In this document: piece after piece, positions 37,720-63,124 of the stretch
Position numbering within the stretch: position 1 is the stretch's first letter
Layout: each line of letters begins with the position of its first letter
Assembly (NCBI RefSeq): GCF_003334815.1
Contig: NZ_QOWO01000015.1
Length of the DNA stretch: 64,000 nucleotides
Reading direction: 5' to 3' (one strand)
Source of the DNA: Escherichia coli
GTDB lineage: Bacteria; Pseudomonadota; Gammaproteobacteria; Enterobacterales; Enterobacteriaceae
Position numbers and translations under genes: made by a program
Notes under the pieces: model-generated
Told to the model about the DNA's origin: nothing
The model's input: only the letters and a program-made list of their open reading frames with translations
Database searches by the model: none

Positions 37720-38262
37720 ATGATTATCTATTTACACGGTTTTGACTCTAACAGTCCGGGTAACCACGAGAAAGTCTTACAATTGCAGTTTATTGACCCG
37801 GATGTACGCTTGATAAGCTACAGTACGCGGCATCCGAAACATGATATGCAGCATCTGCTTAAAGAAGTGGACAAAATGTTGCAACTGAACGTTGACGAGC
37901 GTCCGCTAATTTGCGGCGTTGGCTTGGGCGGATACTGGGCGGAACGGATTGGTTTTCTTTGCGACATCCGCCAGGTGATCTTCAACCCTAATTTGTTCCC
38001 TTATGAGAACATGGAAGGCAAGATTGATCGCCCGGAAGAGTATGCCGATATTGCCACTAAGTGTGTGACCAACTTCCGTGAAAAGAATCGCGATCGTTGC
38101 CTGGTGATTTTGTCGCGTAATGATGAAGCGCTTAACAGCCAGCGGACATCTGAAGAGTTGCATCATTATTACGAGATTGTCTGGGACGAAGAGCAGACGC
38201 ACAAATTCAAGAATATCTCCCCGCATTTACAGCGCATTAAAGCGTTCAAAACCCTCGGGTAA
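37720..38262 (+). CDS. ycfP: Esterase YcfP (UPF0227), 180 aa
   Basis: ORF-track frame 37663..38262; ATG 37720 gives [18 protein letters not shown], an alpha/beta-hydrolase start. Confidence 0.88.
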
Positions 38263-38271
38263 ATGCCCTCG

Positions 38272-38390
38272 TCGCATCAGGTAACCTTGCCGGTACCTGA
38301 TGCGCTCCGAATTCTGTGGGTCGGATAAGGCGTCCACGCCGCATCCGACAGTCGAGCATCAATGCCTGATGCGCTTCTTATCAGGCCTAC
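38272..38390. repeat. BIME with three REP palindromic units downstream of ycfP
   Basis: CGCATCAGGTAACCTTGCCGGTACCTGATGCG, TCGGATAAGGCGTCCACGCCGCATCCGA and GCCTGATGCGCTTCTTATCAGGC. Confidence 0.8.
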
Positions 38391-38511
38391 CGAACGCCCT
38401 GCATACACCCCTCACTCTATATCACTCTCACAAATTCGCTCAAATAATAAACAATAAACTCTGTTTTTTGATCTCACCCGGTAAAGTCGCCTATCTTTTC
38501 AGCAACAAAAC

Positions 38512-38525
38512 TTGATTAACATCAA
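38512..38525. promoter_or_regulatory. FNR consensus site TTGAT-TAAC-ATCAA in the ndh regulatory region
   Basis: Exact TTGAT-N4-ATCAA palindrome about 140 nt upstream of the ndh start. Confidence 0.65.
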
Positions 38526-38661
38526 TTTTGGTATGACCAATGCACCATTCATGTTATTCTCAATAGCGAAGAACATTTTCATTGCTGTAACCTGTTGTTA
38601 ATTAAGAGCTATGTTAATAACCATTAATTAACAATTGGTTAATAAATTTAAGGGGGTCACG

Positions 38662-39966
38662 TTGACTACGCCATTGAAAAAGATTGTGATTGTCGGCGGC
38701 GGTGCTGGTGGGCTGGAAATGGCAACACAGCTGGGGCATAAGCTGGGACGCAAGAAAAAAGCCAAAATTACGCTGGTCGATCGTAACCACAGCCACCTGT
38801 GGAAACCGCTGCTGCACGAAGTGGCGACTGGCTCGCTTGATGAAGGCGTCGATGCGTTGAGCTATCTGGCCCATGCGCGCAATCATGGTTTCCAGTTCCA
38901 GCTGGGTTCCGTCATTGATATTGATCGTGAAGCGAAAACAATCACTATTGCAGAACTGCGCGACGAGAAAGGTGAACTGCTGGTTCCGGAACGTAAAATC
39001 GCCTATGACACCCTGGTAATGGCGCTGGGTAGCACCTCTAACGATTTCAATACGCCAGGTGTCAAAGAGAACTGCATTTTCCTCGATAACCCGCACCAGG
39101 CGCGTCGCTTCCACCAGGAGATGCTGAATTTGTTCCTGAAATACTCCGCCAACCTGGGCGCGAATGGCAAAGTGAACATTGCGATTGTCGGCGGCGGCGC
39201 GACGGGTGTAGAACTCTCCGCTGAATTGCACAACGCGGTCAAGCAACTGCACAGCTACGGTTACAAAGGCCTGACCAACGAAGCCCTGAACGTAACGCTG
39301 GTAGAAGCGGGAGAACGTATTTTGCCTGCGTTACCGCCACGTATCTCTGCTGCGGCCCACAACGAGCTAACGAAACTTGGCGTTCGCGTGCTGACGCAAA
39401 CCATGGTCACCAGTGCTGATGAAGGCGGCCTGCACACTAAAGATGGCGAATATATTGAGGCTGATCTGATGGTATGGGCAGCCGGGATCAAAGCGCCAGA
39501 CTTCCTGAAAGATATCGGTGGTCTTGAAACTAACCGTATCAACCAGCTGGTGGTGGAACCGACGCTGCAAACCACCCGCGATCCAGACATTTACGCTATT
39601 GGCGACTGCGCGTCATGCCCGCGTCCGGAAGGGGGCTTTGTTCCGCCGCGTGCTCAGGCTGCACACCAGATGGCGACTTGCGCAATGAACAACATTCTGG
39701 CGCAGATGAACGGTAAGCCGCTGAAAAATTATCAGTATAAAGATCATGGTTCGCTGGTATCGCTGTCGAACTTCTCCACCGTCGGTAGCCTGATGGGTAA
39801 CCTGACGCGCGGCTCAATGATGATTGAAGGACGAATTGCGCGCTTTGTATATATCTCGCTATACCGAATGCATCAGATTGCGCTGCATGGTTACTTTAAA
39901 ACCGGATTAATGATGCTGGTGGGGAGTATTAACCGCGTTATCCGTCCGCGTTTGAAGTTGCATTAA
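38662..39966 (+). CDS. ndh: Type II NADH dehydrogenase NDH-2, 434 aa (TTG start)
   Basis: ORF-track frame 38635..39966; TTG 38662 gives [28 protein letters not shown] with Rossmann GxGxxG. Confidence 0.93.
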
Positions 39967-57034: not shown

Positions 57035-58171
57035 TTACTTGTGTTCTTCATCAGCCAGTACGACCTCCCAGCTTTCTACCCAATTAATGGCCATTTTTTG
57101 GTCGAGAGAGTGGTCAAAGTCAGGATCGTCTTCATTGAAGAATTCGCTGACCATCACCATCTTGCCATTTTCCAGTTCAACAACCGACTCCAGCGTCATG
57201 CCTTTGTAGTTACGCTCGCGAACGTAACCAATCAGCCCTTCAGCGTGGTTGTCGTCGTTAATCTCTTCAACACGTAAGTCTTCCGGGCGCAGCAGAACAT
57301 GCAGTTTTTGCCCCGGTTCAACGGCGAAGTTAACGTAGATATTACATTCGCGGCCTTCAACGTTGGCGCGTACGCGCTGCTCGTCTAGACGTTCGATGAC
57401 AGTGGCGTTAAACATATTGATTTCGCCAATGAAGCCGGCAACAAACAGGTTTTTCGGCTCTTCGTAGATTTCACGCGGCGTGCCGTCTTGCTCAATGCGA
57501 CCATCGCGCATCACCACAATCCTGTCTGACATGGTGAGTGCTTCTTCCTGGTCGTGAGTCACAAAGACGAATGTAATGCCAAGCTTACGCTGTAACGCTT
57601 TCAGCTCGTTCTGCATTTGCTTACGCAGTTTGTAATCCAGCGCTGAGAGCGACTCATCCAGCAACAACAGACGAGGCTTGTTAACCACCGCGCGAGCAAT
57701 GGCGACGCGTTGCTGTTGACCACCAGAGAGCTGATGCGGTTTGCGTTGAGCGAAGGTTTCCAACTGCACCATCCGCAGGGCTTCCATCACGCGGGGCGTA
57801 ATTTCAGCAGCGGGGGTTTTTTGCATGCGCAACCCAAAGGCCACATTTTCGAACACGGTCATGTGGGGGAAAAGTGCGTAGCTTTGGAAAACAGTGTTCA
57901 CATAGCGGTTTTCCGCCGGAACGTGGGTGATGTCCTCGTTATCCAGCATGATGCGTCCGGAATCAACAGTTTCCAGACCTGCAATCAGGCGAAGAACGGT
58001 TGTTTTACCGCAGCCAGAAGGGCCAAGCAGCGTGAGGAACTCGCCATTGTTGATAGTCAGATCCAGCTGGGGAATGACCTCTTTACCATCAAAGCATTTG
58101 CGAATTCCCGCCAATTGCACCAGCGGTGAAAGCGAACTCGGTTGTTTATTCAATTTTTTACTCTGTCCCAT
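57035..58171 (-). CDS. potA: Spermidine/putrescine ABC ATPase PotA, 378 aa
   Basis: 378-aa ORF with Walker [10 protein letters not shown], signature [14 protein letters not shown] and Walker B LLLLDE. Confidence 0.96.
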
Positions 58172-63083: not shown

Positions 63084-63101
63084 GTAAACATTAAATAAAC
63101 C
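63084..63101 (-). promoter_or_regulatory. PhoP box (GGTTTA-N5-TGTTTA direct repeat) in the phoP promoter
   Basis: Minus-strand reading of 63085-63101 gives GGTTTATTTAATGTTTA, 60-77 nt upstream of the phoP ATG. Confidence 0.7.
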
Positions 63102-63124
63102 AGCGGGGAGGGGAGGTAAAGTGA

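What the first reader, a model, noticed from the sequence alone, without database searches (positions are those of the whole stretch)
38512..38661. ndh upstream region: perfect FNR site followed by a TTAAT-rich palindromic tract
TTGAT-TAAC-ATCAA at 38512-38525 is an exact FNR consensus, consistent with anaerobic repression of ndh. Downstream, 38590-38650 is dominated by TTAAT/ATTAA repeats (GTTAATTAAG, GTTAATAACCATTAATTAACAATTGGTTAATAAA) with an internal CAATTG palindrome. These could host nucleoid-protein or second-regulator sites that overlap the core promoter.
Basis: partly seen in the sequence, partly recalled or inferred. Interest (0 to 1): 0.3.

Follow-up and report, generated by a model that had tools for sequence, protein, structure and literature searches.

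The report
Known FNR and ArcA operators of ndh
This is the well-studied control region of the E. coli ndh gene: the perfect FNR box is the published repressor site at -50.5, and the TTAAT-rich tract is the published ArcA-P operator inside the transcribed leader, so the finding is real but ordinary.

Summary
The window is E. coli K-12, and 38512-38661 is the ycfP-ndh intergenic region. Both observations hold. TTGATTAACATCAA (38512-38525) is the only exact FNR consensus in the 64 kb. The tract 38590-38650 has the densest TTAAT/ATTAA cluster in the window.

Both features are already explained in print. The ndh transcription start is window 38569, which puts the FNR box at -50.5, the published FNR repression site. 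The TTAAT tract is not in the core promoter. It spans +22 to +82 of a 93-nt leader.

Its core, 38614-38645 on the minus strand, is the three-direct-repeat ArcA-P site at +46/+77 reported from ChIP-seq by Park et al. 2013. ArcA~P represses ndh transcription in vitro (Rolfe et al. 2012). A PWM I built without the ndh site ranks this position first in the window, at 18.9 bits.

Across 80 Enterobacteriaceae species the FNR half-sites, the adjacent PdhR box and the ArcA repeats are about 97-100% conserved. Synonymous sites are 57% conserved. The tract is also a 54-nt palindrome that could form an RNA hairpin, but more distant taxa show no compensatory changes while the ArcA repeats persist.

Verdict: already known, low interest.

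The parts
38468..38481 (+). Upstream FNR half-site TTGATctcaCCCGG. Its centre is at -94.5, 44 bp upstream of the main FNR box.
   Evidence: Sequence. The -94.5 position matches my memory of Meng, Green and Guest 1997, which I could not retrieve. It is not conserved outside Escherichia: 30% column identity, and a TTGAT at this spacing in only 3 of 79 loci.
38512..38525 (.). FNR box I, TTGATTAACATCAA, an exact consensus centred at -50.5 of the ndh promoter.
   Evidence: Unique in the window. FNR ChIP-seq and the -50.5 position are given in Myers et al. 2013. The half-sites are 99.7% and 99.2% conserved while the 4-nt spacer is 44.6% conserved, across 80 species. It is retained in Erwiniaceae.
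38526..38542 (.). PdhR box ttTTGGTatgACCAATg at -43 to -27, overlapping the -35 hexamer.
   Evidence: Listed with this sequence, and confirmed by gel shift, in Anzai et al. 2020. It is 99.1% conserved in 80 Enterobacteriaceae.
38528..38560 (+). Core sigma-70 promoter Pndh: TTGGTA (38528-38533), a 21-nt spacer, then TATTCT (38555-38560).
   Evidence: The ROSE in vitro transcription-start mapping paper gives these hexamers. The consensus scan finds no canonical promoter here, which fits the long spacer.
38569..38661 (+). Transcribed ndh leader of 93 nt. The transcription start is 38569, which is NC_000913.3 position 1,165,992.
   Evidence: Start coordinate. The ndh CDS starts at 1,166,085, which is window 38662.
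38588..38600 (-). IHF-consensus-like site TAACAACAGGTTA, 12 of 13 matches to WATCAANNNNTTR, centred at +26.
   Evidence: The centre coincides with the IHF site at +26 that I recall from Green, Anjum and Guest 1997, which I could not retrieve. IHF occupancy at this promoter is mentioned.
38595..38604 (+). Plus-strand ArcA direct-repeat element TTGTTAATTA. This is the left arm of the palindrome.
   Evidence: The PWM box 38595-38612 scores 11.7 bits. Rolfe et al. list a predicted ArcA site at +36. The left arm 38587-38606 is 91% conserved.
38614..38645 (-). ArcA-P operator of three direct repeats spaced 11 bp centre to centre: TTATTAACCA / TTGTTAATTA / TGGTTATTAA, at +46 to +77.
   Evidence: Park et al. 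2013 Tables S1, S3, S4 and S7 give the ChIP-seq peak, an 18.7-bit ArcA box and the position 46/77. My PWM, built without ndh, scores 18.9 bits here, the top hit in the window. Positions 38624-38645 are 97.4% conserved, with a 16-nt invariant run at 38628-38643. The repeats and their 11-bp phasing are kept in Erwiniaceae.
38588..38641 (+). 54-nt imperfect palindrome, a potential leader RNA hairpin. It arises from ArcA repeats lying on opposite strands.
   Evidence: Inverted repeat I1. RNA folding gives -17.2 kcal/mol with z = -4.72. The structure is conserved but not covarying.
38650..38664 (+). Shine-Dalgarno sequence AAGGGGG (38650-38656) and the TTG start codon of ndh (38662-38664).
   Evidence: Sequence. 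The translation matches ndh.

Best explanation
The interval is the control region of the E. coli ndh gene, which encodes NADH dehydrogenase II. It is a compact stack of operators for oxygen- and metabolism-sensing repressors.

The perfect palindrome at 38512-38525 is FNR site I, centred at -50.5. Under anaerobiosis, [4Fe-4S]-FNR binds it and lowers RNA polymerase occupancy.

Immediately downstream, a PdhR box covers the -35 hexamer.

The TTAAT-rich tract lies downstream of the transcription start, at +22 to +82. It is made of ArcA direct-repeat elements with GTTAA cores. Three sit on the non-coding strand at 11-bp spacing (+46 to +77), and one identical 10-mer sits on the coding strand (+27 to +36). 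Phosphorylated ArcA, formed when the quinone pool is reduced, binds these repeats cooperatively. In vitro it blocks ndh transcription from a position downstream of the start site.

Because the repeats face each other, the DNA reads as a long A/T-rich palindrome. The same DNA is reported to bind IHF and Fis.

What is shown and what is inferred:
- Shown in published work: FNR and ArcA occupancy in vivo, ArcA~P repression in vitro, and PdhR binding.
- Shown here: the coordinates, the PWM rank and the phylogenetic footprints.
- Inferred: that ArcA acts as a roadblock or promoter-escape block, and that ArcA is the main cause of the tract's conservation.
For: Identity and coordinates:
- The region is 100% identical to E. 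coli K-12 and annotated as ycfP-ndh.
- The transcription start is 1,165,992, which is window 38569, with hexamers TTGGTA-21-TATTCT.

FNR:
- FNR ChIP-seq lists ndh as directly repressed, with the site at -50.5. This is exactly the centre of 38512-38525.

ArcA, published:
- There is an ArcA ChIP-seq peak at ndh.
- The ArcA box ttgttaattaatggttat scores 18.7 bits.
- The three-repeat site TTATTAACCAATTGTTAATTAATGGTTATTAA lies at +46/+77. Its reverse complement is window 38614-38645.
- ArcA~P represses ndh in vitro. Predicted ArcA sites are at -57, +36, +52, +57, +66 and +68.

ArcA, tested here:
- An ArcA-box PWM built from 114 published boxes, leaving out ndh, gives its best hit in the 64-kb window at 38617-38634 on the minus strand. 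The score is 18.9 bits, against a median of 16.0 for known sites.
- Overlapping boxes score 13.3 and 11.7 bits.

Phylogenetic footprint over 80 Enterobacteriaceae species:
- FNR half-sites are 99% conserved and the spacer 45%.
- The PdhR box is 99% conserved, and 38624-38645 is 97%.
- Third codon positions of ndh are 57% conserved.
- The longest invariant run is 16 nt in the leader against 6 nt in the CDS.

More distant taxa:
- In five of the six Erwiniaceae-type loci a minus-strand ArcA box scoring 12-19 bits persists 43-45 nt upstream of the start codon despite substitutions and a 2-nt loop deletion, and in four of these five a second overlapping box shows the 11-bp phasing. The sixth such locus (L089) repeats the Mixta leader sequence. 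In Shimwellia the best box is on the plus strand, and in Tenebrionibacter only a plus-strand box passes the threshold. An FNR-like box persists in all of them.
Against: - The direction of ArcA's net effect in vivo is not settled. Park et al. and Rolfe et al. note that expression profiling had suggested activation, whereas in vitro ArcA~P represses.
- ArcA repeat elements tolerate variation. ArcA alone therefore does not obviously explain a 16-nt invariant run (38628-38643) across 80 species. Overlapping constraints are likely, such as sites on both strands, Fis or IHF, or an RNA-level role.
- The published Fis and IHF coordinates rest on my memory. The original papers could not be retrieved.
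- I saw no ArcA footprint on this DNA itself. The published evidence I read is a ChIP-seq peak, motif prediction and in vitro transcription.
Confidence: 0.9

Rival explanations
1. The tract works mainly as RNA. The 54-nt palindrome forms a leader hairpin at +20 to +73 that controls ndh mRNA stability, or translation from the weak TTG start codon. That RNA function would be what keeps the sequence invariant.
For: - The hairpin folds at -17.2 kcal/mol with z = -4.72, and no shuffle out of 200 folds as well.
- RNAalifold keeps the structure in 73 distinct leaders, with 97.9% of cells paired.
- One pair (38602/38627) shows 5 C-G double changes, a count reached by only 1 of 500 shuffles.
- Shimwellia has an even longer, perfect hairpin at -25.5 kcal/mol.
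Against: - 13 of 22 pairs never vary, so they carry no information. At the one covarying pair, 12 sequences are unpaired.
- After adding Erwiniaceae and other distant taxa there are 0 compensatory changes. The covariation score is below the shuffle mean, with 468 of 500 shuffles at least as high.
- Pairs 38594-38596 with 38633-38635 are broken in 3 to 5 of 11 taxa.
- In the five Erwiniaceae-type taxa ArcA box scores stay high at the same position.
- Inverted ArcA repeats produce the palindrome automatically.
- There is no Rfam family hit in the leader, and no paper in the held library on ndh mRNA and small RNAs.
Confidence: 0.1
2. The tract is primarily a nucleoid-protein platform. Fis site III near +51 and IHF near +26 would shape leader DNA to repress transcription, and ArcA would be secondary.
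For: - An IHF-consensus match (12 of 13) is centred exactly at +26.
- In vivo protein-occupancy data assign IHF to this promoter, and HU binding to it is reported.
- From memory, Jackson et al. 2004 place a repressing Fis III site at +51, and Green et al. 1997 place IHF at +26, -17 and -58.
- High A+T content (78.7%) suits such proteins.
Against: - Fis and IHF recognise degenerate motifs and DNA shape. That does not predict base-by-base invariance or retention of GTTAA cores at 11-bp phasing across families.
- The part of the tract around +40 to +54 is the least conserved, at 70%.
- The ArcA peak at ndh has heights of 11.9 and 11.0, higher than the neighbouring rows of the table excerpt I read except dhaR/dhaK in the second replicate.
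- The two readings are not exclusive.
Confidence: 0.15
3. CAATTGGTTAAT is a second PdhR operator, because it contains the AATTGGT half of the PdhR box. It would loop with the box at -35.
For: AATTGGT at 38633-38639 equals the left half of the PdhR consensus AATTGGTnnnACCAATT given, and it is invariant in 80 species.
Against: - The right half is absent. The sequence is TAATAAATT where nnnACCAATT would be needed.
- Genomic SELEX reports a single PdhR box at ndh, the one at 38526-38542.
- In Erwinia persicina, Pantoea and Mixta the PdhR box at -35 is lost while the leader element is kept.
Confidence: 0.03
4. The tract is just A/T-rich intergenic filler, and the FNR match is chance.
For: 9 of 100 shuffles of the window contain at least one exact FNR consensus.
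Against: - Conservation is far above the synonymous-site baseline.
- Motif density is beyond what composition gives.
- Published ChIP-seq shows both FNR and ArcA at this locus.
Confidence: 0.01

Closest known systems
FNR site I of the E. coli ndh promoter (Green and Guest 1994; Myers et al. 2013)
   Same: It is the same locus and the same sequence, at the same position of -50.5. It shows the same behaviour: direct FNR repression with loss of sigma-70 occupancy under anaerobiosis.
   Different: Nothing differs. This is that site. The only addition here is the footprint across 80 species, with half-sites 99% and spacer 45% conserved, and the finding that the accessory upstream half-site at -94.5 is confined to Escherichia.
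ArcA-P multi-direct-repeat operators (Park et al. 2013), for example icdA, acs and astC
   Same: There are three 10-bp repeat elements with GTTAA-type cores at 11-bp centre-to-centre spacing. The box scores 18.7 bits. ndh is itself in their tables of ArcA boxes and three-repeat sites.
   Different: Most repressing ArcA sites overlap the sigma-70 recognition elements. This one lies wholly downstream of the start, at +46/+77. An additional identical repeat on the opposite strand makes the whole tract palindromic.
PdhR operator at ndh (Ogasawara et al. 2007; Anzai et al. 2020)
   Same: The box ttTTGGTatgACCAATg at 38526-38542 is the published one.
PhoP and other OmpR/PhoB-family direct-repeat boxes
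   Same: They share the 11-bp-phased direct repeats of a GTTTA/GTTAA hexamer. The ArcA PWM also hits TGGTTTATTTAATGTTTA upstream of phoP in this window.
   Different: A different regulator and regulon. At ndh the occupant identified by ChIP-seq is ArcA.

Membership tests
FNR operator (CRP/FNR-family binding site) | Inverted repeat TTGAT-N4-ATCAA | tested here: met
   Exact 10 of 10 match at 38512-38525, and the only one in 64 kb.
FNR operator (CRP/FNR-family binding site) | Selection on the two half-sites but not on the spacer | tested here: met
   Half-sites are 99.7% and 99.2% conserved, the spacer 44.6%, and synonymous sites 56.7%, across 80 species.
FNR operator (CRP/FNR-family binding site) | FNR occupancy in vivo and FNR-dependent regulation of the adjacent gene | not testable with these tools
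ArcA-P direct-repeat operator | At least two direct-repeat elements (TGTTAA-like) at 11-bp centre-to-centre spacing that score as an ArcA box | tested here: met
   A PWM built without ndh gives 18.9 bits at 38617-38634 on the minus strand, the top hit in the window. An overlapping box 11 bp away scores 13.3 bits, which makes three phased repeats. This matches Park Tables S3 and S4.
ArcA-P direct-repeat operator | Repeat cores and phasing retained in other taxa despite substitutions | tested here: met
   Boxes of 12.4-19.0 bits lie on the minus strand 43-45 nt upstream of the start codon in Erwinia, Pantoea, Mixta, Winslowiella and [Pantoea] beijingensis. Four of these five also have a second box 11 bp away. 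Shimwellia and Tenebrionibacter score best on the plus strand.
ArcA-P direct-repeat operator | ArcA-P binding and a regulatory effect | not testable with these tools
   Published: a ChIP-seq peak with heights 11.9 and 11.0, and repression of ndh in vitro by ArcA~P but not by unphosphorylated ArcA. The sign of the effect in vivo is disputed.
Structured cis-regulatory leader RNA | A structure more stable than composition predicts | tested here: met
   -17.2 kcal/mol, z = -4.72, and no shuffle of 200 folds as well.
Structured cis-regulatory leader RNA | Compensatory base-pair changes (covariation) | tested here: not met
   Within Enterobacteriaceae only one pair covaries, and 13 of 22 pairs are invariant. 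With more distant taxa there are 0 double changes, the covariation score is below the shuffles, and several pairs are broken.
Structured cis-regulatory leader RNA | Match to a described RNA family | tested here: not met
   Rfam 15 at E <= 1 finds nothing in the leader. The only hit is a REP-type naRNA4 match upstream at 38319-38387.
PdhR operator (second site in the leader) | Both halves of AATTGGTnnnACCAATT | tested here: not met
   Only the left half, AATTGGT, is present at 38633-38639 (with the consensus).
IHF site | Match to WATCAANNNNTTR | tested here: inconclusive
   12 of 13 matches at 38588-38600 on the minus strand, centred at +26. Two further one-mismatch matches lie at +67 and +70. 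The motif is weak and the region is A/T-rich. The binding data are in a paper I could not retrieve.

The most novel reading that the evidence does not exclude
The 16-nt invariant core (38628-38643, TTAACAATTGGTTAAT) and the 54-nt palindrome may be held fixed by more than ArcA. One possibility is that the leader hairpin tunes stability or TTG-initiated translation of ndh mRNA. Another is that an unidentified factor reads the palindrome. In either case the same bases would serve as an ArcA operator in DNA and as a regulatory element in RNA.
Probability: 0.1. Interest if true: 0.4.

Novelty: already known. Interest (0 to 1): 0.1.

Why it matters
ndh encodes the non-proton-pumping NADH dehydrogenase. 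Its expression sets how efficiently E. coli couples respiration to energy conservation. The promoter is a textbook case of many regulators packed into about 200 bp: FNR, ArcA, PdhR, NsrR, Fis and IHF.

The finding adds nothing new to that picture.

The cross-species footprint has modest value:
- FNR site I and the ArcA leader operator are shared by Enterobacteriaceae and Erwiniaceae.
- The PdhR box is absent from three of the Erwiniaceae-type taxa sampled (Erwinia persicina, Pantoea, Mixta) but kept in the other four distant taxa.
- The accessory FNR site at -94.5 is confined to Escherichia.

Tried and rejected
- **Sigma-70 consensus scan of 38200-38760.** It found no promoter. The real promoter has a 21-nt spacer, so the scan was uninformative.
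- **Rfam at E <= 1.** It found nothing in the leader, only a sub-threshold REP/naRNA4 hit upstream.
- **Original ndh promoter papers.** I tried to retrieve Jackson 2004, Green 1997, Meng 1997 and Ogasawara 2007. None is held. The Fis I/II/III and IHF coordinates are therefore cited from memory only.
- **Literature on small RNAs and the ndh leader.** Searches for RIL-seq or sRNA regulation gave no hits. A search for 'Fis III' also gave none.
- **NsrR site coordinates.** The paper I checked mentions ndh only as a mutant. The copper/AZY paper is irrelevant to regulation.
- **RNA hairpin hypothesis.** I took it seriously because of z = -4.7 and its conservation. I rejected it as the main explanation after distant taxa showed broken pairs and no compensation.
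- **Second PdhR operator.** Rejected because only a half-site is present.
- **Other ArcA PWM hits in the window.** The 15.8-bit hit at 57330 lies inside the potA coding sequence and is probably chance. The hit at 63085 lies in the phoP-purB spacer and looks like a PhoP box.

Full report
**Identity of the region**

The 551 nt around the finding are 100% identical to E. coli K-12 MG1655 and are present in all 5,426 complete E. coli genomes. They are annotated as the spacer between ycfP and ndh. In NC_000913.3 the ndh CDS begins at 1,166,085. This corresponds to the TTG at window 38662, so window coordinate + 1,127,423 gives the genome coordinate. The finding's interval ends one base before the ndh start codon.

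**Observation check**

All quoted strings are at the stated coordinates.
- TTGATNNNNATCAA occurs once in the 64-kb window, against 0.11 expected from shuffles.
- The tract 38590-38650 is 78.7% A+T and carries 7 TTAAT/ATTAA pentamers.
- That is the highest density in the window, and more than its composition gives: 4 of 5000 shuffles reach it.
- The tract is also a 25/25-nt inverted repeat with a 4-nt spacer.

**Where the promoter is**

A genome-wide in vitro transcription-start study places Pndh at 1,165,992, with hexamers TTGGTA-21-TATTCT. That is window 38569, with the -35 hexamer at 38528-38533 and the -10 hexamer at 38555-38560. The unusual spacer explains why the simple consensus scan found no promoter. 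The leader is therefore 93 nt (38569-38661). The TTAAT tract spans +22 to +82, which is downstream of the start site and not in the core promoter.

**The FNR box**

The centre of 38512-38525 is 38518.5, which is -50.5. [quoted passage not shown] A TTGAT half-site lies exactly 44 bp upstream (38468-38481, centre -94.5). This agrees with the second FNR site I recall from Meng et al. 1997, which I could not retrieve.

**The PdhR box**

The PdhR box ttTTGGTatgACCAATg abuts the FNR box at 38526-38542 and overlaps the -35 hexamer. It was found by genomic SELEX and confirmed by gel shift, and ndh is derepressed in a pdhR mutant and by pyruvate.

**The TTAAT tract**

Park et al. 2013 report the following for ndh:
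- a strong ArcA ChIP-seq peak, with heights 11.9 and 11.0;
- an ArcA box on the minus strand, ttgttaattaatggttat, at 18.7 bits;
- a three-direct-repeat site, TTATTAACCAATTGTTAATTAATGGTTATTAA, at +46/+77.

The reverse complement of that site is exactly window 38614-38645, and +46/+77 recomputes correctly from the start at 38569. Rolfe et al. 2012 showed that phosphorylated ArcA, but not unphosphorylated ArcA, represses ndh transcription in vitro. They list predicted ArcA sites at -57, +36, +52, +57, +66 and +68.

As an independent check I built an 18-nt PWM from 114 published ArcA boxes, leaving ndh out, and scanned both strands of the window:
- the best hit is 38617-38634 on the minus strand at 18.9 bits, against a median of 16.0 for known sites;
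- an overlapping box 11 bp away scores 13.3 bits;
- a plus-strand box at 38595-38612 scores 11.7 bits.

The plus-strand element TTGTTAATTA (38595-38604) is identical to the central minus-strand repeat (38634-38625). This is why the tract reads as a palindrome.

An IHF-consensus match (12 of 13) is centred at +26. That fits my recollection of Green et al. 1997. From memory, Fis site III lies near +51. In vivo occupancy work describes this promoter as carrying overlapping sites for six transcription factors, including IHF, PdhR, NsrR and ArcA.

**Phylogenetic footprint**

I fetched ndh loci from 80 species-representative Enterobacteriaceae genomes, with 92-100% protein identity, and aligned the upstream 300 nt. 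The baseline is ndh third codon positions: 56.7% identical to E. coli, 4.6% invariant, and a longest invariant run of 6 nt in the CDS. Identity of each region to the E. coli base:

| Region | Identity to E. coli |
|---|---|
| FNR half-sites | 99.7% and 99.2% |
| FNR spacer | 44.6% |
| PdhR box | 99.1% |
| -10 region | 83.5% |
| Early leader, 38563-38586 | 52% |
| Left arm, 38587-38606 | 91% |
| Apical part, 38607-38623 | 70% |
| 38624-38645 | 97.4% |

The last region contains a 16-nt invariant run at 38628-38643. The -94.5 half-site is not conserved outside Escherichia.

**DNA operator or RNA hairpin?**

The palindrome folds as RNA at -17.2 kcal/mol with z = -4.72. RNAalifold keeps the structure in 73 distinct leaders. 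However, 13 of 22 pairs never vary. The single variable pair (38602/38627) gives 5 C-G double changes but also 12 unpaired cases.

To gain divergence I fetched eight more distant loci through protein homologues at 84-91% identity: Shimwellia, the Tenebrionibacter group, Erwinia, Pantoea, Mixta, Winslowiella, [Pantoea] beijingensis and an endosymbiont. The results were:
- 0 compensatory changes;
- a covariation score below the shuffle mean, with 468 of 500 shuffles at least as high;
- pairs 38594-38596 with 38633-38635 broken in 3 to 5 of 11 taxa;
- a minus-strand ArcA box still at 12.4-19.0 bits, 43-45 nt from the start codon, in the five distinct Erwiniaceae-type taxa. In four of these five a second overlapping box 11 bp away preserves the phasing, and this holds despite a 2-nt deletion in the loop region. 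Shimwellia and Tenebrionibacter instead score best on the plus strand.

The substitutions fall in low-information repeat positions, for example TTGTTAATTA to TCGTTAATTA or TAGTTAATCA. The outer repeat becomes the common variant TTGTGAA. This pattern is what an ArcA operator predicts and is not what a constrained helix predicts. Rfam finds no family in the leader. The RNA reading remains possible as an added layer but is unsupported.

**Mechanism and uncertainty**

The best-supported model has three repressors converging on a weak promoter:
- FNR acts at -50.5, helped in E. coli by the -94.5 site.
- PdhR acts over the -35 hexamer.
- ArcA-P acts on the leader repeats downstream of the start, probably as a block to promoter escape or elongation.
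- IHF and Fis share the same A/T-rich DNA.

The sign of ArcA's net effect in vivo is disputed in the literature. ArcA alone also does not obviously account for base-by-base invariance over 16 nt, so overlapping constraints are likely.

**Comparison with what is known, and verdict**

Every element here is already described for this very locus. Nothing distinguishes it from the published ndh promoter. It misplaces the tract relative to the promoter and omits ArcA and PdhR.

Novelty: already known. Interest: low.

Noticed in passing
window 38319-38387 (also the hairpin at 38356-38372): A REP/BIME-type palindromic element lies between ycfP and ndh. It matches Rfam naRNA4 (RF02564) on both strands at 56.5 and 52.5 bits, just below the gathering score of 59.5. 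The terminator scan also picks a hairpin inside it.
   Followed up: partly
window 38526-38542; loci L082, L083 and L085 upstream of ndh: The PdhR box is invariant in 80 Enterobacteriaceae. It is absent in Erwinia persicina, Pantoea and Mixta. It is retained in Shimwellia, Tenebrionibacter, Winslowiella and [Pantoea] beijingensis. The FNR box and ArcA repeats are kept in all of these taxa.
   Followed up: partly
window 38468-38481: The accessory FNR half-site at -94.5 is found only in Escherichia. A TTGAT at the 44-bp spacing occurs in 3 of 79 loci. The requirement for two FNR sites described for E. coli may therefore be lineage-specific.
   Followed up: partly
window 38662-38664 and position 1501 in loci L002-L081: The ndh start codon differs between genera. 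It is TTG in most, ATG in the Kluyvera group, and GTG in Raoultella, Yokenella and Pseudocitrobacter. It always follows a strong AAGGGGG Shine-Dalgarno sequence.
   Followed up: no
window 63085-63102 (minus strand), in the phoP-purB spacer: The ArcA PWM scores 13.8 bits on TGGTTTATTTAATGTTTA just upstream of phoP. From memory, this looks like the PhoP direct-repeat box of the phoPQ promoter. It illustrates cross-hits between OmpR/PhoB-family motifs.
   Followed up: partly
window 57330-57347 (minus strand): The second-best ArcA PWM hit in the window (15.8 bits, ATGTAATATCTACGTTAA) lies inside the potA coding sequence. It is probably a chance match.
   Followed up: partly
L084 619-674 (Shimwellia blattae ndh leader): The equivalent leader palindrome is much longer and nearly perfect, at -25.5 kcal/mol with z = -6.8. 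The apical region is also self-complementary.
   Followed up: no
window 38635-39966: The mechanical ORF list extends ndh by 9 codons from an upstream in-frame TTG at 38635, which lies inside the ArcA operator. The annotated start, which follows the Shine-Dalgarno sequence, is 38662.
   Followed up: yes
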